Notes under the pieces: generated by a model
Database searches by the model: none
What the model was told of the DNA's origin: nothing
What the model saw: the letters and a program-made list of their open reading frames with translations, nothing else
Position numbers and translations under genes: made by a program
Shown: positions 21,227-60,710 of the stretch, piece by piece
Layout of the letters: the number at the start of each line of letters is the position of its first letter
Numbering within the stretch: the stretch's first letter is position 1
Virus record (IMG/VR): IMGVR_UViG_2934748790_000001
Span: 1 to 64,000 of that record
Strand: one strand, 5' to 3'
DNA length: 64,000 nucleotides
Source: a virus
Taxonomy: Duplodnaviria > Caudoviricetes

Positions 21227-21772
21227 TTAGTCGCCCGTCGAGTAACGGACCGACGCACCGTGCTTTCGCGCGTAGATCGTGCGACGTCCGCCCTCGACGT
21301 TGATCACGCCGACCAAACGCCACCCGGGGTTGCCGTACTGGTGGTGCACGATGCGCATCGCTGCCGCCCGCATCTCCCTGTCCAGTTCGGCGGCCTTGAT
21401 CGGCGTGTGCACGCGCGTGCGCAGTTCCGGGGCGGGCAGCACCTTGACCGGCTCCGCCGTCGCGTCCGGCGCGGGGGTGCCCGTGGCGGCCTGCCAGATG
21501 GAGCGCTTCGGCATGTCGGACGGCTTGGCCGCGTCCCGGGCGGGGGTGTTCGGGAGGACCGACGGGGAGCGCTTGGCCGCGAACGTGGCCGATACGGTCT
21601 CGCGCGTCCGGGTCATGTTGTCCGCCGCGAGCATCCCCAAGGACGAGTGCATGCCCGTGGCCTCGAACTCAGCGGCGCGCATGTGGTCCAGGAAACCGAG
21701 GGAGGTCCGGCGCGCGTTGGCGTTCCGCTTACGCTGCGCACGCTTGCGGGCGCGGGTGGTGGAACGACTCAT
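21227..21772 (-). CDS. Arg-rich basic phage protein
   Basis: AGGAG RBS; RARKRAQRKR N-terminus. Confidence 0.7.
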   Translation of the reverse strand: MSRSTTRARKRAQRKRNANARRTSLGFLDHMRAAEFEATGMHSSLGMLAADNMTRTRETVSATFAAKRSPSVLPNTPARDAAKPSDMPKRSIWQAATGTPAPDATAEPVKVLPAPELRTRVHTPIKAAELDREMRAAAMRIVHHQYGNPGWRLVGVINVEGGRRTIYARKHGASVRYSTGD

Positions 21773-42689: not shown

Positions 42690-43711
42690 GGCGCCTGTGT
42701 CTTCCAGTTGATGCCGATGGGGTTGCGGTGGTGGCCGGCAGGGAGTCGAGAAGCGTGCCGGTAGATCATAGTGGTGCTGAAGTCTTTGTGTCCGTAGTAG
42801 GTCATGACGCGGTCGTAGCTGGGCTTGTCGGGGTCGACCAGCGCGAGCGTGATGGTGGTTGCGCGGCCGTCGTGGGGACCGATGGTAAAGCCGCATGCTC
42901 GTCCGGCTTCCTGGACCATGCGGTAGATGCCGGATGCGTCGAGCCGGGTGTGTTCGAGTTGCCCGGTCTCTTTGTTCCGTGTGCGGCGCCCGGTGGACAT
43001 GATGAGAGGGCCTGCGGTTCGGCCGTCGAGGAATTCGTCTGTCAGTTCGGCGAGGCGGTGGGGGATGTCGATGTCTACCCAGGCACCGCCCTTGCGTTTG
43101 AACCGGAGCATGCGACCTCGGGGGACCTGGTAGAAGTTCTCCGCGCTGACGTTCTCGATTTCCTCGCACCGTAGTCCGGGTCCGAAGGCGTAGCCGTTGG
43201 CGATCTGAGAACGGATCGACCTTTTTCGGGCAGCCGTCAGGACGTCGTTGATTTCCCAGGGGAGCAGCACGGAGCGTTGCTTCCGGGTGCGCGTTTCGAG
43301 CTTTACCGCCTTGATCGGGTTGGTGCCTCGGAGTTGGTGGACGATGGAGTAGGAGAAGGCGGAGCTGAGCGCGTCGTACTTTGCTTTGAGGCTGGGGGTT
43401 CCGTACGGCAAGCTCGCGCATTCCGTGGTGCAGTCGCCGGGGTGGTCGTCCCAGTGAGGGCTTTCGAGGTAGGTGAAATAGTCCTCGACTTCTTCGACGC
43501 CAGCTTGTTTGAGTGCGTCGATTCCTGCGTAGTCGCTGTATCGCTCCATCCAGCCGAGGAAGAGTTCGAAATATGGCAGGTACTTGCGGCGGGTCTCGGG
43601 GCTCGTGAGCTGGTTGCCCCATCGGCGGATGAACGTCTCCAGGTCCATCTCGGTGTTGCGGGCGCGGCGGGTGCGGTCGGCCCATGCGGGCGGTGCGGTG
43701 CTGGCGGGCAT
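42686..43711 (-). CDS. Tyrosine recombinase (XerC/integrase family)
   Basis: GLRCEE, KGG, HDGR, GH..STT.IY catalytic residues; TAGGGT-6nt-ATG. Confidence 0.92.
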   Translation of the reverse strand: MPASTAPPAWADRTRRARNTEMDLETFIRRWGNQLTSPETRRKYLPYFELFLGWMERYSDYAGIDALKQAGVEEVEDYFTYLESPHWDDHPGDCTTECASLPYGTPSLKAKYDALSSAFSYSIVHQLRGTNPIKAVKLETRTRKQRSVLLPWEINDVLTAARKRSIRSQIANGYAFGPGLRCEEIENVSAENFYQVPRGRMLRFKRKGGAWVDIDIPHRLAELTDEFLDGRTAGPLIMSTGRRTRNKETGQLEHTRLDASGIYRMVQEAGRACGFTIGPHDGRATTITLALVDPDKPSYDRVMTYYGHKDFSTTMIYRHASRLPAGHHRNPIGINWKTQAP

Positions 43712-43815: not shown

Positions 43816-45366
43816 ATGGGGACCCCACTTGATGCTACGGAGCGCGAGCTGACCCTTGGCATGCCCGAGGAGCCGGAGCCGACCGATGCTGCCGACGGAG
43901 ACCAGGCCGTCATCGAGGACATCATCGACAAGATCATCTTGGTCATCGACGAACTGTCCGGTCACCCCCTGCGCCCGTACCAGCTCCCCCTGGCCCGTCG
44001 CATTCTGGAGTCACTCATCATCGAGGACTCCGCCAAGATCACCGCGCTGTGGAGCCGGCAGTCCGGAAAATCCGAGACCGTCGCCGACACTGTGGCCGGC
44101 GCGGCAATCATGCTCCCCCGGCTCGCCAAGGTGTTTCCCACACTTCTGGGGAAGTTCAAAGAGGGTCTGTGGGTCGGTGTTTTCGCCCCGACCGACGAGA
44201 TGTCCGAGACTCTCTTTTCCCGCATCGTTGGCCGGCTCACATCCGAGCGCGCCCAGGACATCATGGCGGACCCGGAGATCGACGAGAAGTTGGTGGCCCG
44301 GGGAAAGGTTCTCCACCTCAAGCGCTGCGGGAGCCTCATTCGAAAGCAGACGGCACATCCGAAGGCCATGATCGAGGGGCAGACCTACCACCTGGTCGTG
44401 ATCGACGAGGCGCAGGCTGCCGACGACAAGGTACTCAACAAGAGCATCACGCCGATGCTGGCTTCCACCGCTGGGACGATCTGTCTGACAGGCACCCCCA
44501 CGTACACGAAGTCGGGTTTCTACGAACAGATACAGAAGAATAAGAGAGAATCCACTCGCAAGGGCAGAAAGAGCAACCACTTCCAGGTCGACTGGAAGGA
44601 AGTCTCCAAAAGTGTTCCGCGCTACAAGAAGTTCGTGCAGAGCGAGATGGACCGCCTCGGCGAGGACAGCGACGAATTCAAACTGTCTTACCGGCTGATT
44701 TGGCTGCTCGACAAGGGCATGCTCTGCACCTCCGACCGTTTCGATTCGCTCGGCGACGTCTCCATGCGTGCAGTGCAGGAGTGGCACCGCTCCCCCGTGA
44801 TCGTCGGAATCGACCCCGCCCGGAAAACGGACTCCACGATCGTCACTGTCTGCTGGGTGAACTGGGATTACCCCGACGAGTACGGAAACTACGAGCACCG
44901 CGTGCTCAACTGGTTGGATCTCCAGGGCCTGGACTGGGAGACGCAGTATTACCGCATCGTCGAATTCCTCTCCCATTACAACGTTTTCGCTATCGGCATC
45001 GACGCCGGCGGCCTCGGCGACGTGGTGGCCAGCAGGCTGCGAGTGCTCATGCCCTACTCCCAGATGATCGACCTGAAAAGCGACCGCACGAATCAGACCA
45101 AGCGTTGGGCCCACATGATGGACCTCATGTCCAAGGGCCTCGTGATCTGGCCGGCGCACGCCAAGACGCGGTCCACAAAGACCTGGCGGAGATTCAGGCA
45201 GCAGATGGAAGACGCTGAGCTGACCTACCAGGGCCCCCACATCATCGTCGCGGCGCCCGAGGTGGATGCCGCGCACGACGACTACGTGGACTCCCTGGCC
45301 AACGCCCTCTTTCTCACCGCAGAAATGAGCATGCCCGAGGTCGAGATGCAGAATGCACCCTGGTAG
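43816..45366 (+). CDS. terL: Terminase large subunit
   Basis: RQSGKS Walker A, VIDEAQ Walker B, GTP, GIDP and DDYVDS nuclease motifs. Confidence 0.95.
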   Translation: MGTPLDATERELTLGMPEEPEPTDAADGDQAVIEDIIDKIILVIDELSGHPLRPYQLPLARRILESLIIEDSAKITALWSRQSGKSETVADTVAGAAIMLPRLAKVFPTLLGKFKEGLWVGVFAPTDEMSETLFSRIVGRLTSERAQDIMADPEIDEKLVARGKVLHLKRCGSLIRKQTAHPKAMIEGQTYHLVVIDEAQAADDKVLNKSITPMLASTAGTICLTGTPTYTKSGFYEQIQKNKRESTRKGRKSNHFQVDWKEVSKSVPRYKKFVQSEMDRLGEDSDEFKLSYRLIWLLDKGMLCTSDRFDSLGDVSMRAVQEWHRSPVIVGIDPARKTDSTIVTVCWVNWDYPDEYGNYEHRVLNWLDLQGLDWETQYYRIVEFLSHYNVFAIGIDAGGLGDVVASRLRVLMPYSQMIDLKSDRTNQTKRWAHMMDLMSKGLVIWPAHAKTRSTKTWRRFRQQMEDAELTYQGPHIIVAAPEVDAAHDDYVDSLANALFLTAEMSMPEVEMQNAPW

Positions 45367-45832: not shown

Positions 45833-46543
45833 GTGACCCAGCCCGGACAGTCGACCCCGTGGGCGAAGTTCCCCATCCCCTCGTCAGGGAAGGTGCCGGA
45901 CGTCCCGGTCGACCTGGCGGCGGTCGTCGACCCGATCGACACGCTCCTCAAGAACGTGATCGGCGGGGCGACGGCCCCTACGGGCCCGCTCAGTCCCACC
46001 ATCACCGAGGCGTCCGCCAGTATCGGGTCTCTCAATGCCACTCAGAGCAGCCAGCAGACGGACATCGCCCAGATCAAGGACCAGATCGCCAGGCTTTCGG
46101 CGGTGCCGTGGGCGTCGGCGACAGCTCGCACCACGACGCTGAGTATCACCGGCACCACCCGTACGCCCACCCAGGTCCACTCGATGACCATTCCGTCCGC
46201 CCCGCAGCGGCGCCTGCTCATGGTGCACACGACGATGAGTGTGGGGTGGACGGATAACGCCACCACCACTCAGGCGCGAGCCCGTCTCCAGCTCCGGGCG
46301 GACGGCTCGGCCACCTACGTCGACCGCAACATCAGCATCACCAGCGGGGTGGACCAGACGGCGACCTTGAGCTTCGTCGAGACCGTCGAAGCGGGAAAGA
46401 GCCCCTCGGTGCGCCTGACCTTGGAGGTCTATGGCCAGTCCGCCTCTTCGTCTCGCATCCTCGCGACGCAGCCGCCGGACCCTCGCATCTATGCCGTTGC
46501 GCTCCCCTGGAGTGGCCTGACCGTGCCGTACCTGCCCGTGTAG
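45833..46543 (+). CDS. Putative virion protein, beta-rich C-terminus
   Basis: ORF in structural operon. Confidence 0.7.
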   Translation: MTQPGQSTPWAKFPIPSSGKVPDVPVDLAAVVDPIDTLLKNVIGGATAPTGPLSPTITEASASIGSLNATQSSQQTDIAQIKDQIARLSAVPWASATARTTTLSITGTTRTPTQVHSMTIPSAPQRRLLMVHTTMSVGWTDNATTTQARARLQLRADGSATYVDRNISITSGVDQTATLSFVETVEAGKSPSVRLTLEVYGQSASSSRILATQPPDPRIYAVALPWSGLTVPYLPV

Positions 46544-46624
46544 CGGCGGAGCTTACGTCAAGTACAGACCAGCATTCGTTTCATATTCATCATCGCTGGC
46601 GGAGTTGAAAGGAGGTGATGTCCT

Positions 46625-48338
46625 ATGTCCGTTGCTTTTGTCTCACCGTCCATGCGCGCAGCCGCCAGCGACCTGACCATCTCTGTCAGTCCGCTCGGAT
46701 TGGTCGAGTTGGCGGACGAGTTAAGAGGAATTTGAGGTACATGGCCCGCGTCTTACCCGGTACGCGAATCACTGGGCCTGGTATCTGGGGCATCACTGGG
46801 GGTACAAACGGGAGGCCGGCGAACCGAGCCTCACCATCAATTACGTCGGCGCCTTGAGCCGGTACATCACGAATTTCACATTCGGTCGTGGCGTGCACTT
46901 CCAGTCTGACAAGAAGTACGAGCACGTGGTGCCCGCGCTGCTGGAACGCGCCTGGGCGATCGACAACGACCGGAAGACCGTCCTGTGGCAGATGGGCGAA
47001 AACGGTTCAGTCAGTGGCGACTGTTTCGTGAAGGTCGCGTATGAACCGGCGTGGGCCGATGCTGCGGGAAACGCACACCCCGGTCGTGTTCGCATTCTTC
47101 CGCTCAACGGGGCGCAGTGCTTCCCCGAGTATCACCCCCACGATCGTGACCGCCTTCTCAGAATGAAGATCAAATACAAGTTCTGGGGCACTTCTCTCGA
47201 AGGCACTCGCGCGGTGTACACGTACACCGAGATCATCACGGACCACACCATCGAGGAGTACGTCAACGACGAGCTGCTCGACGCCCGGGAGAACCCACTC
47301 GGCACGATCCCCATCGTCCACATCCGGAACATCGCCGTATCCGGCTCCCCCTGGGGCCTCGCCGACATCGTTGACGTCATCCCCCTCAACCGGGAGTACA
47401 ACGAAAAGGCGACAGAAGTCTCGGACATCATCAACTACCACTCGGCCCCGGTCACCATCATCACCGGCGCCAAGGCCAGCAACCTGGAAAAGGGGCCGCG
47501 AAAAATCTGGGGCGGCCTTCCGAAGGACGCGCAGGTTTTCAACCTGGAGAACGGCGTCGACCTGAGCGGGCCGCTGGCCTACATGGACCTGATCAAGCGG
47601 TCCATGCACGAACTGACCGGCGTACCGGAGACAGCCCTCGGGCAAGCCCAGGCGATCTCCAACACCAGCGGGGTCGCGCTCAGCATTCAGTTCCTCCCCC
47701 TTATGCAGCGGTACGCGCTCAAGCAGACGAACTACACCCTCGGCCTCAAGCAGATCAACGAACTGGTCCTCCGGACCCTGTTCTTGTACGAGCCCGACAC
47801 CCTCGTCTACAACCCCGACACTCAGGGAATCCGCACTGCGGACGCCCAGCCCTTGATCATCGACCCCCGTGACCCCCAGGTCTACGACACGAAATGCGAG
47901 TGGCCGCCCCCCCTTCCGGTCGACGTTCTGGTGAAACTCAACGAGGTGCAGGCGAAGCTGGCTCTCGGGTTGGAGTCCAAGCGGGGAGCCCTGCGCGACC
48001 TCGGCGAGACCTTCGTCGACGAGAAGATGCAGGAAATCTTCGACGAGCAGCTCCGGGAATCCCGTGAGGAAGGTGCGCTCGAACTTATTAAGGCTCAAAT
48101 AGCTAGCGCTATCTTGCGTTCAACGGGATTGCCGCCCACGGGCGTGGAAAGCCCGCCCCCTGCTCCGGCAAGCGGCTCCTCTACCTCGGCAGCCAAATCC
48201 GGGGCGACAAGTGCCGGCCCCTTGCCGGGACTCCCCGGAACGGGCAGTGGCAAGGACATCGAATCGGTTCTCAGTGAACTCGTGACGCTCTCCAAGGGCA
48301 CAAAGCTCGCCCAGCGGAGAAACCCGGAAAACGACTAG
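46625..48338 (+). CDS. Portal protein, split by a 7-nt coding gap at 46721-46727 (probable UUA-linked bypass)
   Basis: AAAGGAGG RBS at 46625; portal motifs (G.IPIVHI.N, G.ADI, SG.AL) in the +1 frame; position after terL. Confidence 0.85.
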
Positions 48339-49286: not shown

Positions 49287-50429
49287 GTGGCAAGCGGAAT
49301 CACCGGGACTCCGGTCCTGTCCCCCACACCGACCGCCTATACGGCGGCCAACTCCACGATGCTCACCCCGGCCATCCAGACCATCTGGTCGAAGGAAATT
49401 CTTTTCCAGGCGATGCCCGTGCTCAGGTTCGAGCAATTCATGGTCAAGAAGACCGAGCTGGGTACCGCTCCCGGTCTGACTGTGAATTTCATGCGGTACC
49501 GGAGTCTCGACGGAGCCCAGCAGCTCGTCGAGGGCGTCCGCATGGAGACCCACGCACTCTCGGCCGAGCAGATCACCATCACTGTGGCGGAGCACGGTTT
49601 CGCCATCGCCGTCACGGAACTCCTGCTCAACGCGTCTTTCGATGACGTTATGGCAAGCGGTGCCCGGCTTCTCGGCCGAAACATGGCGACCTATCTGGAC
49701 GCGCTCTGCCGGGACACCCTCCTTGGCGCTCCGTCGGTCCTTTACGGATACGACAAGCTGGCCTCCTGGTCGGCGGGTGCCGCGCGTACTCCGCTTTCGC
49801 CGTACGACCGGGGCATGTTCGCCGACTCCGAGGCGACCATGGCCGCGAACGGGGGCTTCTACTTCACGTCTGCCCTGGTGAAGGACGCGGTCGAGACCCT
49901 CGCGACGAAGAACGTGCCTCGCCTCGGCGAGACGTATGTCGCTTTTGTCCACCCGCATCAGAGCCGTCGGCTTCGCGACGATCCGGAATTCATCGAGGTG
50001 ACGAAGTATGCCGCCCCGGGGAACTTCATGCTCGGGGAAATCGGCAGGCTGAATGACGTGGTATTCATCGAGACCACGCAGGTCTTCCAGGGCAACACGA
50101 CTCAGCCGCCCACCCGGCAGATCGGGACCAACATTCCCACCAACACTGCCCAGAAGTGGGGCGGCCAGCCCTCCCGCAGCGCCTCGGGAGCAACGCCGGC
50201 GATCCCGGCCGTCACGTCGACTCCGTCCAACCCGAATGCGCCGACGAACCCGATCTACCGCGCGCTGGTAATCGGTGACAATGCCGCCGGTCACGCCATC
50301 TCCCTGCCCGTCGAACTGAGGGACGGGGGCGTGCTCGACTTCGGAAGGGAGCACGCCTTGGCCTGGTATTCGGTGTTCGGTCTCGGGCTCATCACGGATT
50401 ATGCCGTGGTGCAGTGCGCAACGAACTGA
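49287..50429 (+). CDS. Major capsid protein (N4 gp56-like, HK97 fold)
   Basis: LxEG..M, EHG, FVHP, GEIG....FIET, DFGR motifs. Confidence 0.9.
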   Translation: MASGITGTPVLSPTPTAYTAANSTMLTPAIQTIWSKEILFQAMPVLRFEQFMVKKTELGTAPGLTVNFMRYRSLDGAQQLVEGVRMETHALSAEQITITVAEHGFAIAVTELLLNASFDDVMASGARLLGRNMATYLDALCRDTLLGAPSVLYGYDKLASWSAGAARTPLSPYDRGMFADSEATMAANGGFYFTSALVKDAVETLATKNVPRLGETYVAFVHPHQSRRLRDDPEFIEVTKYAAPGNFMLGEIGRLNDVVFIETTQVFQGNTTQPPTRQIGTNIPTNTAQKWGGQPSRSASGATPAIPAVTSTPSNPNAPTNPIYRALVIGDNAAGHAISLPVELRDGGVLDFGREHALAWYSVFGLGLITDYAVVQCATN

Positions 50430-58051: not shown

Positions 58052-60052
58052 ATGACGACGCCCACGACATTCCCTTACAAGAGGCCCGGGGTGTACATCT
58101 CGGAAAGCCTGAAGCCGCTTCCGCAGCAGGTATCGCCGCCCGGTGTTTCGATCGCGACGTTCGTCGGCACTCACGACGCGGGGCCCTCGACCCCGGTCAA
58201 GGTGACGTCCTGGGAGCAGTTCATGTCCCTTTACGGGGGCTTCGGAAACGGCATGAACTACTTGCCGTTCCAGGTCTACTCGTTCTTCGCGAACGGTGGC
58301 CGGACCGCATGGATTCTTCGCGCGACCCCGTCGGATTCGGTATCGGCCCGGCTCATGGTGCGCAACCGGCCGCTGCCGCCGACCGAGACGATTACCGGGA
58401 GCCCTGATGGTGTTCCGCCCACAGGCAGTGGCACCAAGCCCACCGCGAAGGTGACAGGGGTCTCGCTGGTAAGTCCGTCAGGACCGGTAACAGCCAACCC
58501 CGAGCAGACCGCGTTCGCGATCGAGTGGACCGCCATCACACCGCTGGCGAATGTGGACGCCTACCTGGTGGAGGTCACGCAGCCGGACGAGGGATCTTTC
58601 AGCAAGGTGGTCTGGGTCAGCCAGCCGTCCGAGGGCAAGCCCACAGCGGCGTTCACGAACCTTGCGCCCGGCACCACCTATGAGGTGCAGATCACGCCCT
58701 ACAAGGGCGAGACGGCCGGAGACCCCATGGACTCCCCTGCGGTCTTCGACACAACGGCCGGACACACCCCGGTCGATGCCCTCCAGGTCACTGCCCGGGG
58801 GCGGGGGGCATACGGAAACCGCCTCTTCGTCACCACCACCCCCTCCTGGAACTCGGGGCGCTTCCACCTGTACGTCAAATACGGGGGCACCAACCAGGGC
58901 GCCCTGGTCGAGACCTGGCAGGATCTCTCGCTCAACCCCGGCGACCCGCGCTACGCCGTCAGCCTCATCAACAGCGCCACTTCGGGGTCCAGCTACATCG
59001 AGATCGCGAATCTCCTGCCCCCGGACTCGGCCACCCCGGGCACCGGCGCCGCCCCTGACGGCTCCTGGCAGCCCGAGTACGTTGCCGACGCCCCTCTGGA
59101 GTCGGGGGTGGACGGCGTCCAGGCCGTCAACCTCTCTCAACAGCTCAGCGACCACTTCGCCTCCATCGAAGACGTCCTACTGGTGAACCTGTGCGGCAAC
59201 ACCCAGCTCACCGACCACGTACCGCCGGCCACCCAGATCAACTCCGCGCTGGTATGGGCAGAGGCCCGGCGCAGCGCGTTCGTCGTCCTCGACGCACCCC
59301 GACAGCCAGCGCCGATCGCGGCGGACGCCGCTGCGACGAAGTACATCGAATCCGCCTCCAGCTATGCCCCCGCGACGTCGTACGCGGCGCTGTACGGGCC
59401 GTGGGTCCAGGTCGCAGACCCGGCCGGCGCCTCGGTGTCCTCGACGCGGATGCTGCCGCCGAGCGGGGCGGTCATGGGCCAGTTCTCTCAAGCGGATGCG
59501 GCAGTCGGTCCCAACCGAAGCCCTGCCGGCATCGCGTACAGCCTGGTCGGCGCCGTAGGTGTCGAGCACCTCTTCACCCTCGACCAGCTCGACGCGCTCA
59601 ACGAGAGGGGGGTCAACGTCATTCGGCCCGTACCCCAGAGCGGCTATTGCGTGATGGGGGCGCGCACCCTCAAGGCCGGAATGCCGGACCGCTACATCAG
59701 CGTGCGGCGCATGCTGATGTACATCGAGAACCTGCTGGAGAACGTCACACGGTTCGCGATTTTCGAGCCGAACGGACCGGAGTTGTGGCAGACCCTCTCG
59801 GCGCTGGTGAGCCAACAGCTCATGACGCTCACCCAGTCCGGACAACTTCAGTCCGGAGTCCCCGACGAAGCGTTCTTCGTGGTGTGTGACGACACCAACA
59901 ACACGCCTCGAACGGTATCGCTGGGAGAGATCCACATCACGATCGGCGTGGCACTTTCCAGCCCGGCCGAGTTCATCGTGATCGAGATCAGCCAGTACCA
60001 GGGCGGAGTCTCTTCGGCGACAGACTCCATGGAGCAGACAGCCATCGGCTGA
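58052..60052 (+). CDS. Tail sheath protein with FN3 insertion
   Basis: RPGVYI, FFANGG, PPSG, RSPAG, GARTL, RYISVRR, FEPN, PAEF motifs. Confidence 0.95.
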   Translation: MTTPTTFPYKRPGVYISESLKPLPQQVSPPGVSIATFVGTHDAGPSTPVKVTSWEQFMSLYGGFGNGMNYLPFQVYSFFANGGRTAWILRATPSDSVSARLMVRNRPLPPTETITGSPDGVPPTGSGTKPTAKVTGVSLVSPSGPVTANPEQTAFAIEWTAITPLANVDAYLVEVTQPDEGSFSKVVWVSQPSEGKPTAAFTNLAPGTTYEVQITPYKGETAGDPMDSPAVFDTTAGHTPVDALQVTARGRGAYGNRLFVTTTPSWNSGRFHLYVKYGGTNQGALVETWQDLSLNPGDPRYAVSLINSATSGSSYIEIANLLPPDSATPGTGAAPDGSWQPEYVADAPLESGVDGVQAVNLSQQLSDHFASIEDVLLVNLCGNTQLTDHVPPATQINSALVWAEARRSAFVVLDAPRQPAPIAADAAATKYIESASSYAPATSYAALYGPWVQVADPAGASVSSTRMLPPSGAVMGQFSQADAAVGPNRSPAGIAYSLVGAVGVEHLFTLDQLDALNERGVNVIRPVPQSGYCVMGARTLKAGMPDRYISVRRMLMYIENLLENVTRFAIFEPNGPELWQTLSALVSQQLMTLTQSGQLQSGVPDEAFFVVCDDTNNTPRTVSLGEIHITIGVALSSPAEFIVIEISQYQGGVSSATDSMEQTAIG

Positions 60053-60125: not shown

Positions 60126-60710
60126 ATGGCGACCGTAAGCACGACGCAGAAGCCGAGTCTGGCGCAGCTCCAGACCGACCCGCTGCGGAACTTCAAGTTT
60201 CAGGTGCAGATCCACCTGGCAAACTCCACGCTGGACTCCAGCAAGCGCTCGAATCAGCTCGGATTCATGTCCGTCAGCGGGCTGAGCATCACCACCGACG
60301 TCGTGGTCTACCGCCAGGGCGGCATGAACACCACGACGCAGAAGATGCCTGGTCAGAGCGACTTTGCGCCCATCACGCTGTCCCGGGGACTCATCTGCGG
60401 CGACTCGGACATCTATAAGTGGCTGAAGCAGCTTTTCATGGTCATGCAGGGAAGCGGCGGCAACGACGGCGCCTACAACTTCCGGGCCACGATGGACATT
60501 TACCTGCTGGACCACCCCGTGACCACGAAGACCGTCTACTACAAGGCTGGCTGGCGCATCTATAACTGCTGGCCCACCAGCATCGCCTTCGGCGACCTGG
60601 ACAGCGGGGCGAACGGTGTGGAACTCCAGCAGATCACCCTCGCGCACGAAGGCTGGGACTTCAAGATCGCCAGCAAGTACGGGCCCGGCGTCGGCGTCTC
60701 GATGCCGTAA
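60126..60710 (+). CDS. Tail tube protein (T4 gp19-like)
   Basis: DPLRNFKF, GF..VSGL, YRQGG, ITL.RG, WP, L.HEG. Confidence 0.92.
   Translation: MATVSTTQKPSLAQLQTDPLRNFKFQVQIHLANSTLDSSKRSNQLGFMSVSGLSITTDVVVYRQGGMNTTTQKMPGQSDFAPITLSRGLICGDSDIYKWLKQLFMVMQGSGGNDGAYNFRATMDIYLLDHPVTTKTVYYKAGWRIYNCWPTSIAFGDLDSGANGVELQQITLAHEGWDFKIASKYGPGVGVSMP

What the first reader, a model, noticed from the sequence alone, without database searches (positions are those of the whole stretch)
46625..46760. Portal gene needs a 7-nt ribosomal hop at a rare UUA codon: probable bldA-gated switch on virion assembly
Seen: from the RBS-led ATG at 46625 the frame reads ..LVELAD-GAG(46718)-TTA-AGA-GGA-ATT-TGA, while the portal continues in +1 after a second GAG (46725): GAG-TTAA-GAG-GAA-TTT-GAG-GTA-CAT. 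Matched take-off and landing codons flank a UUA in the A site; hopping gives LADEEFEVHGPR, which is the contiguous sequence I recall in homologous portals (unverified). Established: UUA is read only by the developmentally regulated bldA tRNA, and UUA-associated translational bypassing has been proposed for Streptomyces phage genes such as the phiHau3 terminase. Inference: full portal is made when bldA tRNA is scarce and is truncated at 36 aa when it is abundant, an inverted bldA logic tying lysis to vegetative growth. The ORF track start at 46854 misses about 74 N-terminal residues.
Basis: partly seen in the sequence, partly recalled or inferred. Interest (0 to 1): 0.85.

Follow-up and report, generated by a model that had tools for sequence, protein, structure and literature searches.

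The report
Ribosome hop at UUA in portal gene
The essential portal gene of a Streptomyces prophage carries seven extra bases that ribosomes most likely skip at a very rare leucine codon, a trick previously proposed only for a few phage terminase genes and here found again and again in related portal genes.

Summary
From ATG 46625 the frame reads 32 portal codons, then GAG-TTA-A-GAG. The zero frame stops at TGA 46733. The portal continues in +1 from 46725 with no start codon before TTG 46854. Eighty of 84 compared portal loci read LADEEFEVHGPR without interruption, so the window has a 7-nt insert.

It is not an error or a dead gene. Two independent assemblies 2.3% diverged keep the insert, and all 14 substitutions inside the gene are synonymous.

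Relatives carry 27 other short gaps of 1-22 nt, nearly all in codons 32-57. Each starts with a rare or stop codon right after the last in-frame codon: TTA x12 (counting the window), TAG x7, TGA x5, TAA, AGA, ATA and AAA. Most end in a triplet matching that codon. Their lengths fall in all three frames, so only skipping restores the conserved peptide.

Best reading: programmed translational bypassing, as proposed for the phiHau3 terminase. This makes it a new member of that kind.

The bldA switch remains an inference. TTA gaps go with integrase-bearing phages, which favours it. Stop-codon gaps in relatives sit beside an HNH endonuclease gene, as in T4 gene 60, which suggests an origin in nuclease immunity.

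The parts
46610..46615 (+). Shine-Dalgarno sequence AGGAGG, 9 nt before the ATG
   Evidence: read
46625..46720 (+). Portal coding segment 1, codons 1-32 (MSVAFVSPSMRAAASDLTISVSPLGLVELADE). Its last codon, GAG 46718-20, is the take-off codon.
   Evidence: Matches residues 1-33 of the pSt2308, Alone3 and BRock portals. The 2 substitutions against runs X3/X4 are both synonymous. dN/dS is 0.03-0.13 against relatives.
46721..46727 (+). Coding gap of 7 nt: UUA (46721-23, A-site codon), A (46724), and landing codon GAG (46725-27)
   Evidence: Absent from 80 of 84 homologous loci. Present without change in four assemblies.
46722..46724 (+). TAA in the +1 frame inside the gap. It blocks a +1 shift taken before UUA is decoded.
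46733..46735 (+). Zero-frame stop TGA. Ribosomes that decode UUA end here with a 36-aa peptide.
46728..48338 (+). Portal coding segment 2 (resume codon GAA 46728 through the stop codon, 536 codons). The predicted bypass product is 568 aa.
   Evidence: Pfam SPP1_portal PF05133, E 1.3e-21. All 12 substitutions against X3/X4 are synonymous. The stretch 46743-46853, which has no canonical start, shows dN/dS 0.05-0.12 against other gapped lineages.
46854..46856 (+). TTG taken as the start by mechanical ORF calling. It is not the true start.
   Evidence: Conserved portal sequence continues 42 codons upstream of it.
43816..45366 (+). Large terminase gene (context)
   Evidence: Pfam Terminase_6N and Terminase_6C
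42749..43264 (-). Tyrosine integrase domain within a 344-aa open frame (context: temperate phage)
   Evidence: PF00589, 32.1 bits, E 5.5e-9
49287..50429 (+). Major capsid protein gene (context)
   Evidence: Pfam Phage_capsid_4 and Phage_capsid_3

Best explanation
The portal gene of this about 108-kb temperate Streptomyces-type phage is one gene interrupted by a 7-nt coding gap, and it is expressed by programmed translational bypassing.

The proposed mechanism is as follows. The ribosome translates codons 1-32. It stalls with peptidyl-tRNA(Glu) on GAG 46718 because the A-site codon UUA is the rarest sense codon, read in Streptomyces only by the bldA tRNA. The peptidyl-tRNA unpairs, the mRNA slides 7 nt, and the tRNA re-pairs with the next GAG at 46725. 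Decoding resumes at GAA 46728. The result is a 568-aa portal with the conserved junction LADEEFEVHGPR.

Ribosomes that decode UUA instead read LRGI and stop at 46733. If so, the yield of portal falls as charged bldA tRNA rises.

Shown here: the gap, its conservation, purifying selection on both sides of it, and the recurrence of the same architecture in relatives. Inferred: the hop itself, its efficiency, and its dependence on bldA.
For: (1) Homologues are contiguous. Eighty of 84 loci have the 48-nt spacing in one frame, as do all 6 GenBank records, representing 5 phages.

(2) The gap is not an artefact. Four assemblies from 3 studies contain it. Two of them (X3, X4) differ by 23 substitutions per 1001 nt with 0 indels.

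(3) The gene is not a pseudogene. All 14 of 14 substitutions inside the gapped gene are synonymous. dN/dS is 0.03-0.13 for segment 1. For the start-less stretch after the gap it is 0.05-0.12 where dS could be estimated (5 of 8 comparisons, 4 of them with gapped relatives). For the body it is 0.08-0.11 against close relatives (0.34 against L116), with two comparisons uninformative because of second gaps.

(4) The architecture recurs. There are 28 distinct gap alleles, counting the window's. Examples are GAG-TTA-CC-GAG at the same site in a Streptomyces sp. HMX87 chromosome (L115) and in L109 and L144; GAA-TTA-T-GAA (L006); GAA-TAG-C-GAA (L042); and CAC-TTA-G-CAC, a second gap in L115.

Gap lengths are 1, 4, 5, 6, 7, 8, 9, 10 and 22 nt, which fall in all three frames. 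Only skipping the gap restores the conserved peptide in every case.

The A-site codon is always rare or a stop: TTA 12, TAG 7, TGA 5, TAA 1, AGA 1, ATA 1, AAA 1.

The landing triplet is identical or synonymous to the take-off codon in 17 alleles and matches 2 of 3 positions in the rest.

(5) The choice of codon follows rarity. TTA gaps occur where the portal body has 0 or 1 TTA, and phages with 11-19 TTA codons use stop codons instead.

(6) The TAA in the +1 frame inside the gap excludes a +1 shift at GAG|UUA.

(7) There is a precedent. phiHau3, StrepC.1 and S. catenulae terminase genes have 10-nt or 7-nt UUA gaps. The contiguous product was detected in Streptomyces, and a junction peptide was found by mass spectrometry in E. 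coli with UAA in place of UUA (PMC10732093, sections 19-21).

(8) The phage has no tRNA of its own.
Against: No protein, ribosome-profiling or RNA data exist for this gene. The hop is inferred from comparison only.

Only contigs could be laid, not raw reads, so a minority ungapped subpopulation cannot be excluded.

No significant local RNA structure accompanies the gap in the window (z +1.37, +0.55, +0.12), and no stimulatory signal was identified.

All five cultured plaque-forming relatives are ungapped, so virion production from a gapped genome has not been demonstrated.

Some relatives' alleles lack a fully cognate landing triplet: the 4-nt gaps, TTC-TAG-C-TAC in L124, and GAA to GAT in L126 and L145. 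L135 and L137 also use TTA once as an ordinary codon. The mechanism may therefore not be uniform across the family.

Short hops measured in E. coli are, from recall, inefficient.
Confidence: 0.8

Rival explanations
1. +1 ribosomal frameshifting rather than a hop. UUA is decoded as Leu by bldA tRNA. With the rare AGA in the A site, the ribosome then shifts +1 and reads GAG GAA. The product is LADE-LE-EFEVH, two extra residues. Portal would then be made only when bldA tRNA is present, which is the opposite regulatory logic.
For: The 7-nt insert equals a +1 frame change. AGA is fairly rare, 56 of 27,974 codons. The 4-nt alleles in relatives (CAT-TTA-C, AAT-TTA-C, CGA-TAG-C, TAT-TAA-C) could be read as a +1 shift with one extra residue. 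The published work also could not exclude +1 shifting beforehand (PMC10732093, section 20).
Against: No homologue tolerates any extra residue at this site: 80 of 84 loci have identical spacing. Gaps of 8 nt at the very same site (L109, L115, L144) and in-frame 6- and 9-nt gaps with stop codons cannot be resolved by a +1 shift. The matching take-off and landing codons would go unexplained. UUA to UAA re-pairing is poor. The +1 shift before UUA decoding runs into TAA 46722-24.
Confidence: 0.07
2. An inactivating 7-nt insertion in a decaying, defective prophage, so that no full-length portal is made.
For: The record is classed as a provirus. Relatives sit inside Streptomyces chromosomes (L115 in a 7.6-Mb contig; P0067 in a 10.3-Mb contig). 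All cultured relatives are ungapped.
Against: All 14 of 14 substitutions accumulated since the insert arose are synonymous, on both sides of the gap. There is low dN/dS in the start-less stretch between gapped lineages. The portal is otherwise intact, as are the terminase and capsid genes scanned against Pfam. There are 28 alleles, each with a slow codon placed exactly at the junction; random chance per allele is about 0.05-0.09. Among 87 loci not selected for gaps, all 8 gaps lie in codons 32-57 of about 570. Random decay would scatter indels of any phase along the gene.
Confidence: 0.06
3. This rival concerns why the gap exists, not how it is read. The gap would be primarily an immunity scar rather than a bldA sensor. 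This conserved stretch of portal DNA would be the target of a homing HNH endonuclease carried by related phages. Short inserts would destroy the target, and bypassing would merely make them harmless, as with the T4 gene 60 gap and MobA. Any bldA dependence would be a side effect.
For: In L124 an HNH ORF (PF01844, E 4.6e-10) is fused in frame to a duplicated copy of portal codons 1-31, directly upstream of the gapped portal. Homologues of this HNH lie directly upstream of the portal in L133, L042, L136, L130, L131, L132, L105, L134, L138, L139, L146 and L147, with a fragment in L120. All of these are gapped, and the HNH is found in none of the 80 ungapped portal loci. Gaps cluster in about 75 nt of very conserved sequence. 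For the precedent, the gene 60 insert blocks MobA nicking, and some phages keep the bypass after losing the endonuclease (bioRxiv 10.1101/2022.08.31.505936, section 12 read).
Against: There is no HNH (PF01844) match in this genome or in 5 other records with TTA gaps. In the temperate Streptomyces clade every gap uses TTA and never a stop, at 6 different sites. High-GC members that carry the HNH use TAG although TTA is just as absent from their portals. This points to something specific about UUA in Streptomyces. Nuclease cleavage of the ungapped site has not been tested.
Confidence: 0.3
4. A split portal. The 36-aa peptide and a shorter portal, started at a later or non-canonical start, would be made separately and assemble together.
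For: In one relative (L021) the stop TAG is followed one base later by an in-frame TTG that could re-initiate. Split genes with functional halves are known around T4 MobA and MobE (same preprint, section 12).
Against: In the window there is no ATG, GTG or TTG in the portal frame for 43 codons after the gap, and that stretch is under purifying selection. The ATG at 46741 is in the wrong frame. Most relatives likewise have no start after the gap.
Confidence: 0.03
5. A sequencing or assembly error.
For: None beyond the prior that frame breaks are often errors.
Against: The 7 nt are not a homopolymer. They are identical in four assemblies from three studies, two of which are 2.3% diverged. Analogous gaps occur in many independent assemblies.
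Confidence: 0.01

Closest known systems
UUA-associated translational bypassing in the large terminase genes of Streptomyces phage phiHau3 and of the StrepC.1 and S. catenulae prophages (Smith et al. 2013, known to me only through citation and recall; Antonov et al. 2023, PMC10732093, sections 19-21 and 23 read)
   Same: Both involve a temperate Streptomyces phage or prophage and an essential virion-assembly gene. In both, a rare UUA directly precedes a short non-coding block (7 or 10 nt) that shifts the frame. The junction is highly conserved in gap-less homologues, so extra residues are unlikely to be tolerated. The proposed logic is the same: bypass when bldA tRNA is lacking.
   Different: The gene is different (portal, not terminase) and so is the phage lineage: about 108 kb, related to BRock, Alone3 and pSt2308, not R4-like. 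There, 3 of 100 terminase genes were gapped. Here the portal family carries 28 alleles at at least 11 sites, some genes with two gaps, and stop-codon versions linked to an HNH gene. The exact take-off and landing codons of the terminase cases are in supplementary tables that I could not open.
Phage T4 gene 60 50-nt bypass with the MobA homing endonuclease cassette (bioRxiv 10.1101/2022.08.31.505936, abstract and section 12 read)
   Same: [quoted passage not shown] In the relatives with stop-type gaps, an adjacent HNH endonuclease gene suggests the gap protects the carrier's own DNA.
   Different: The gaps here are 1-22 nt, not 50. No take-off stem-loop was found in the window. A role for the nascent peptide is unknown. 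The window's genome has no HNH gene. There is no sequence homology to the gene 60 cassette.
Short tRNA hops and slides at hungry or stop codons in E. coli (Weiss, Gallant, O'Connor and co-workers; recalled, not read here)
   Same: Peptidyl-tRNA detaches at a slow A-site codon and re-pairs with a nearby cognate or near-cognate triplet a few bases downstream, without an elaborate signal.
   Different: Those are low-level events in reporters or mutants. Here the gap lies in an essential natural gene kept under purifying selection.
prfB (RF2) +1 programmed frameshift at CUU UGA C (recalled)
   Same: A slow A-site codon in a weak context triggers a change of frame. All 7 TAG gaps in relatives are followed by C or G, and 6 of the 7 by C.
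   Different: prfB moves one base with P-site slippage and adds no gap. The window's site cannot slip by +1 before UUA because of the TAA.
Mycobacteriophage Bxb1 primase genes 50/51 with a rare UUA in the overlap (PMC12646305, passages read)
   Same: The authors suggest a UUA-linked frameshift or bypass joining two ORFs in an actinophage.
   Different: It is unresolved, in a different gene and host, with no matched-codon gap described in the passages I saw.

Membership tests
Programmed translational bypassing (hopping) | A non-coding block interrupts an ORF that is contiguous in homologues | tested here: met
   7 nt at 46721-27. Eighty of 84 loci are ungapped, as are the GenBank portals.
Programmed translational bypassing (hopping) | Take-off and landing codons are read by the same peptidyl-tRNA, and the landing codon is the first match downstream | tested here: met
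   GAG 46718 and GAG 46725. No GAR triplet occurs in between in any frame.
Programmed translational bypassing (hopping) | A slow-to-decode or stop codon occupies the A site at take-off | tested here: met
   UUA is 4 of 27,974 codons and the phage has no tRNA. All 28 alleles begin with a rare or stop codon.
Programmed translational bypassing (hopping) | A single polypeptide lacking gap-encoded residues is made | not testable with these tools
   Needs mass spectrometry or a reporter. Indirect support only: purifying selection on both sides of the gap.
Programmed translational bypassing (hopping) | Stimulatory signals (mRNA structure, internal Shine-Dalgarno sequence, nascent peptide) | tested here: inconclusive
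   There is no significant fold in the window. L006 has a modest hairpin (z -2.25). The L123 gap pairs with the gene's own Shine-Dalgarno region (z -4.64). The nascent peptide was not testable.
bldA (UUA)-dependent regulation in Streptomyces | An in-frame UUA at a position that decides the fate of translation | tested here: met
bldA (UUA)-dependent regulation in Streptomyces | The host is a Streptomyces with developmentally limited tRNA-Leu(UAA) | tested here: inconclusive
   The host genome is not in hand. The nearest relatives lie in Streptomyces sp. genomes (L115, L116; P0067, P0092) and in Streptomyces phages. The timing of bldA is taken from the literature (PMC10732093, abstract).
bldA (UUA)-dependent regulation in Streptomyces | Product yield changes with bldA tRNA level | not testable with these tools
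   Needs reporters in wild-type, bldA-null and overexpressing strains.
Homing-endonuclease plus bypass immunity cassette (T4 gene 60 / MobA type) | An endonuclease gene adjacent to the gapped gene | tested here: not met
   There is no PF01844 match in G000 and no homologue of the L124 HNH. The feature is met in relatives with stop-type gaps.
Homing-endonuclease plus bypass immunity cassette (T4 gene 60 / MobA type) | The gap destroys the endonuclease target | not testable with these tools
   Needs a cleavage assay.
SPP1-type portal protein | Match to the portal profile, in a terminase-portal-scaffold-capsid neighbourhood | tested here: met
   PF05133, E 1.3e-21. Terminase lies upstream and capsid downstream.

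The most novel reading that the evidence does not exclude
The first 60 codons of this portal family are a natural hot spot for translational bypassing, where short coding gaps have arisen many times. In phages of other hosts, the gaps are part of a mobile HNH homing cassette that uses a stop-codon gap as self-immunity; this would be a miniature, independent counterpart of T4 gene 60. In temperate Streptomyces phages, the same trick has been taken over with UUA, so that portal synthesis, and hence virion assembly after induction, reports the host's bldA state. The 28 natural alleles would then give a ready-made rule book for short hops, covering re-pairing at positions 2 and 3 for 4-nt hops, weak stop contexts, and a gap that pairs with the gene's own Shine-Dalgarno sequence.
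Probability: 0.35. Interest if true: 0.9.

Novelty: new member of a known kind. Interest (0 to 1): 0.72.

Why it matters
Translational bypassing has very few natural examples. UUA-triggered bypassing in Streptomyces phages rests on three terminase genes and partial experiments.

This portal gene is a clean further case, with evidence of selection acting after the gap arose. Its relatives supply dozens of natural variants in length, frame, slow codon and landing triplet, which make the rules of short hops directly testable.

It also links two separate ideas. One is bypass as a sensor of host development, through bldA. The other is bypass as the price of immunity to a homing endonuclease.

On the practical side, annotation pipelines split these genes. 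NCBI records call the 43-aa N-terminal piece a hypothetical protein and truncate the portal. Such prophages may therefore be wrongly scored as defective.

Tried and rejected
I searched for other gaps in this genome and found none.
- A scan for codon-(TTA or stop)-N-codon sites with a frame switch found only ordinary gene junctions.
- A scan of all 316 TTA trinucleotides by GC3 gave candidates that proved to be antisense frames. For example, 60565(-) lies opposite the + strand genes at 58052-60052 and 60126-60710.
- A homology-guided test of G000 against the collinear 109-kb record G002 flagged only 21729. That site is an in-frame 9-nt difference on the antisense strand of the real gene at 21227-21772(-). 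The test could judge only 45 of 166 sites in G000 and 27 of 162 in G002.
- Nucleotide alignment of G000 with G002 was too noisy to use for indels: 857 indels, most of them compensating pairs.

RNA structure at the window's gap was not significant.

Pfam gave nothing useful for the two ORFs upstream of the portal or for two ORFs that contain TTA.

No RNA holder was listed among the public runs, so expression could not be examined. Only contigs were available, not raw reads.

Four literature searches found no report of a gapped or bypassed portal gene. The library lacks most subscription journals, and Smith et al. 2013 was not read.

I did not attempt structure or complex prediction, because no claim here depends on either.

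Of the 95 short proteins, I interpreted only the 23 that leave or end the consensus between LVEL and HG. Nineteen continue with L. Four simply end there, and a stop cannot be told from a contig end. The other 72 run further into portal sequence, and many are probably cut by contig ends. I did not classify them.

The L134 allele, one extra T in a T run, may be a sequencing error.
Full report
**What is in the window.**

A strong Shine-Dalgarno sequence (AGGAGG, 46610-15) precedes ATG 46625. The frame reads 32 codons, MSVAFVSPSMRAAASDLTISVSPLGLVELADE, ending in GAG 46718-20. It then reads TTA, AGA, GGA, ATT and TGA (46733-35), which gives the 36-aa ORF listed.

The long portal frame (Pfam SPP1_portal, E 1.3e-21) opens directly after a TAA at 46722-24. 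It begins with GAG 46725 and reads EEFEVHGPRLTRYANHWAWYLGHHWG. It contains no ATG, GTG or TTG until TTG 46854. Mechanical ORF calling therefore loses 74 residues.

**Comparison with homologues.**

The nearest named relatives are the about 113-kb Streptomyces phages pSt2308, Alone3, LuckySocke, GiJojo and BRock. Their annotated portals read MSAINFYSPSMRAAASDLAIAISPLGLVELSDEEFEMHGPRLNRYAEYWAWYLGHHWG without interruption.

I compared 84 loci: 80 IMG/VR relatives, 3 GenBank phages and the window itself. In 80 of them the SPLGLVEL motif and the GPRLxRY motif are 48 nt apart in one frame. The window has 55 nt and a +1 change of frame. Removing TTAAGAG (or equivalently GAGTTAA) gives exactly LADEEFEVHGPR.

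**The insert is real, and the gene has been kept working with it.**

The window belongs to a 108,057-bp IMG/VR record classed as a provirus and 100% complete. It has 65.8% G+C and no tRNA gene. TTA accounts for 4 of 27,974 codons in 121 high-GC3 ORFs.

Five public runs hold the stretch, and I laid four of them. X1 and X2 are identical and may be the source. X3 and X4 come from another study and other organism labels. They cover 46300-47300 in one contig each, with 23 substitutions and no indel. The insert therefore predates a 2.3% divergence.

Of the 22 listed substitutions:
- 2 lie in segment 1 and 12 in the portal body, and all 14 are synonymous;
- in the upstream ORF, 4 are synonymous and 1 is not;
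- 3 are intergenic.

Against more distant gapped relatives (L006, L109, L093, L126), dN/dS is 0.03-0.10 for codons 2-31. It is 0.05-0.12 for the 37 codons between the gap and TTG 46854, and about 0.09-0.11 for the body where that comparison was usable. For two comparisons (L115, L093) the body figure was meaningless. Following up that failure led to the discovery of second gaps in those genes.

A decaying pseudogene is thus very unlikely. The start-less stretch after the gap is evidently translated.

**The same device recurs in relatives.**

Among the 80 IMG/VR relatives fetched without regard to gaps, four are gapped:
- L006: GAA-TTA-T-GAA, two codons downstream of the window's site;
- L042: GAA-TAG-C-GAA;
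- L021: CGA-TAG-C;
- L019: AAT-TTA-C.

Of 7 loci found in bacterial genome assemblies, 3 are gapped:
- L115: inside a 7.6-Mb contig of Streptomyces sp. HMX87, with GAG-TTA-CC-GAG at the window's own site and a second gap, CAC-TTA-G-CAC, 24 codons later;
- L118: TTT-ATA-GG-TTC;
- L120: TTC-TAG-CGG-TTC.

Pattern scans aimed at inserts between E32 and G38 added further alleles:
- GAG-TTA-CC-GAG again (L109, L144);
- GAA-TTA-CC-GAA (L093, which has a second gap, CGA-TTA-C-CGC, at about residue 175);
- GAA-TTA-GC-GAG (L101);
- GAA-TTA-CCTC-GAT (L126);
- a 22-nt gap, GAA-TTA-CGCCTCATCACCTCCT-GAA, in four IMG/VR records (L123, L125, L128, L129);
- CAT-TTA-C (L092, L135, L137);
- CAT-TTA-G-AAT (L142, L143);
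- GTT-TAG-C-GTA (L127);
- TTC-TAG-C-TAC (L124, L139, L147);
- GAA-TAG-CCC-GAA together with TAT-TAG-G-TAC (L130, L131, L138);
- TTC-TGA-CTC together with TAT-TAA-C (L105);
- TTC-TGA-ATC (L133);
- TTC-TGA-CGA-TTT (L136);
- TTC-TGA-AG-TTT (L146);
- TTT-AGA-TC (L132);
- GAA-AAA-CCCT-GAT (L145);
- one extra T giving TTT-TGA (L134), which may be an error.

A dynamic-programming check reproduced the sizes and sites. In the first scan, 22 of the 30 matches were unrelated chance hits, which I discarded. One of the 12 matches in the metagenome scan was also unrelated (L148).

A protein-level search with a 45-aa intact N-terminus returned 95 short ORFs. Nineteen leave the consensus between LVEL and HG, and all 19 continue with Leu. 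Four more end there. Two of these proteins are annotated as hypothetical proteins in NCBI Streptomyces genomes.

**What the alleles have in common.**

Counting the window there are 28 distinct alleles. The first codon of the gap, in the incoming frame, is always a rare sense codon or a stop: TTA 12, TAG 7, TGA 5, TAA 1, AGA 1, ATA 1, AAA 1. At 65% G+C these seven triplets together make up roughly 5% of random triplets. That figure is my own estimate.

The last triplet of the gap is identical or synonymous to the take-off codon in 17 alleles. In the four 4-nt gaps it matches at positions 2 and 3 (CAT to TAC, AAT to TAC, TAT to AAC, CGA to AGC). In most of the rest it matches at two positions.

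Gap lengths are 1, 4, 5, 6, 7, 8, 9, 10 and 22 nt, that is +1, -1 and in-frame. No single frameshift model fits them all, whereas simply skipping the gap restores the conserved peptide in every case.

Codon choice follows rarity. TTA gaps occur where the portal body has 0 TTA among about 50 Leu codons, or 1 in L135 and L137. Phages whose portals use TTA 11-19 times use stop codons in their gaps. The ATA and AGA gaps occur where those codons are absent from the portal. Six of the seven TAG gaps are followed by C, a weak termination context as I recall it.

In the 87 loci not chosen for gaps, all 8 gaps fall in codons 32-57 of about 570. The one gap found outside this stretch (L093, residue about 175) is in a locus that had been picked for its N-terminal gap.

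**Mechanism.**

I conclude that the window's gene is read by translational bypassing. Peptidyl-tRNA(Glu) leaves GAG 46718 while UUA waits in the A site. The mRNA slides, and the tRNA re-pairs at GAG 46725, the first GAR triplet in any frame. Decoding then resumes at GAA 46728, giving a 568-aa portal.

A +1 shift before UUA is decoded would meet TAA 46722-24. A +1 shift after decoding UUA, with AGA in the A site, cannot be excluded for this allele alone. It would add Leu-Glu at a site where no homologue has any extra residue, and it cannot explain the 8-nt alleles at the same site.

I found no significant RNA structure at the window's gap. Short hops may not need one.

This is the mechanism proposed by Smith et al. 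2013 and supported by Antonov et al. 2023 for the phiHau3, StrepC.1 and S. catenulae terminase genes, which have 10-nt or 7-nt UUA gaps. That work detected a contiguous product in Streptomyces, found a junction peptide by mass spectrometry in E. coli when UUA was replaced by UAA, and showed that a +1-frame stop in the gap did not reduce recoding (PMC10732093, sections 19-21 and 23). Those authors found 3 gapped genes among 100 terminase genes, and in the text I read they do not mention portal genes. My four literature searches found no report of a bypassed portal gene.

**What the gap is for.**

It follows if bypassing competes with UUA decoding. The phage brings no tRNA of its own, so the host's bldA tRNA would set the ratio of full-length portal to 36-aa peptide.

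In favour of a role tied to lysogeny, a tyrosine integrase (PF00589) is present here and in 4 of 5 other records with TTA gaps. It is absent from 5 of 5 ungapped complete genomes. Gapped copies also sit inside Streptomyces chromosomes. These records are related to one another, so the counts are not independent. Still, within that temperate clade TTA gaps occupy six different sites, and none uses a stop codon.

Against a purely regulatory origin, relatives from other hosts use stop codons, and there the gap sits beside an HNH endonuclease gene. In L124 that gene (249 aa, PF01844 E 4.6e-10) is fused to a duplicated copy of portal codons 1-31. Its homologues lie directly upstream of the portal in 12 further gapped loci, with a fragment in L120, and in none of the 80 ungapped loci.

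This mirrors T4 gene 60, where the bypass insert prevents MobA from nicking its own carrier, and where some phages keep the bypass after losing the endonuclease (bioRxiv 10.1101/2022.08.31.505936, section 12).

The window's genome and five other genomes with TTA gaps have no HNH match. Immunity to a nuclease and sensing of bldA are not exclusive. I give the bldA-dependent outcome about even odds of being real and selected, and the bypass itself about 0.8.

**Limits.**

Everything about the hop is inference from sequence comparison. No raw reads, RNA or protein data were available. The host is inferred from relatives.

Noticed in passing
L115:2993-3003 and L115:3070-3079 (Streptomyces sp. HMX87, 7.6-Mb contig): A prophage portal with two UUA gaps: GAG-TTA-CC-GAG (8 nt, at the same site as the window) and CAC-TTA-G-CAC (7 nt). 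This parallels the two gaps in the phiHau3 terminase. L093 also has two (GAA-TTA-CC-GAA and CGA-TTA-C-CGC near residue 175), as do L130/L131 and L105.
   Followed up: yes
L124:3058-3807, and upstream of the portal in L133, L042, L136, L130, L131, L132, L105, L134, L138, L139, L146 and L147 (fragment in L120): An HNH endonuclease gene lies directly upstream of the portal only in loci with stop-codon gaps. In L124 it is fused in frame to a duplicated copy of portal codons 1-31. It looks like a homing cassette whose short bypass gap protects its carrier, a small analogue of T4 gene 60 / MobA.
   Followed up: partly
L123:1255-1400 (also L125, L128, L129): The 22-nt gap UUACGCCUCAUCACCUCCU is complementary to the portal gene's own Shine-Dalgarno region about 110 nt upstream. 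The fold has a 14-bp long-range helix, -70.1 kcal/mol, z -4.64, with 0 of 200 shuffles as stable. It may occlude the ribosome-binding site or help pull the mRNA through the ribosome.
   Followed up: partly
L092, L135, L137, L019, L021 and L105 (4-nt gaps): In every 4-nt gap the landing triplet matches the take-off codon at positions 2 and 3 (CAT to TAC, AAT to TAC, TAT to AAC, CGA to AGC). This may explain why CGA is followed by TAG while CAT and AAT are followed by TTA. Six of seven TAG gaps are followed by C.
   Followed up: partly
window 46685-46858: There is no substitution between the window and runs X3/X4 in the 174 nt around the gap, although about 10% of third positions differ further downstream (12 in 46859-47207). 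This could reflect constraint on synonymous sites near the gap or a recent sweep. It rests on one pair only.
   Followed up: no
window 42749-43264 (-), and the records of L006, L126, L093 and L123: A tyrosine integrase lies about 0.5 kb upstream of the terminase gene here. One is present in 4 of 5 other records with TTA gaps and absent from 5 of 5 ungapped complete relatives, including BRock, Alone3 and pSt2308. The integrase lies in the middle of the 'provirus' record, not at an end.
   Followed up: partly
P0067 and P0092: NCBI annotates the 43-aa N-terminal pieces of gapped portals in Streptomyces sp. NBC_01451 and NPDC026672 as hypothetical proteins. The portal genes there are presumably truncated or marked as broken.
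   Followed up: no
G000 against G002 (L150-L155): The window's genome is collinear with a 109-kb IMG/VR record, with a circular permutation (G000 5.7 kb matches G002 29.8 kb, and G000 93.6 kb matches G002 5.6 kb). The whole 108 kb therefore looks like one phage genome rather than phage plus host flank.
   Followed up: partly
window 58052-60052 and 60126-60710 (+): These two ORFs read like a tail sheath protein and a tail tube protein. This is from recall of typical sequences; no profile search was run. If correct, the phage has a contractile tail.
   Followed up: no
window 21729-21737: A 9-nt difference from G002 begins with TTA on the + strand. It looked like a second gap but lies antisense to the real gene (21227-21772, - strand), where it is an ordinary in-frame 3-codon indel.
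   Followed up: yes
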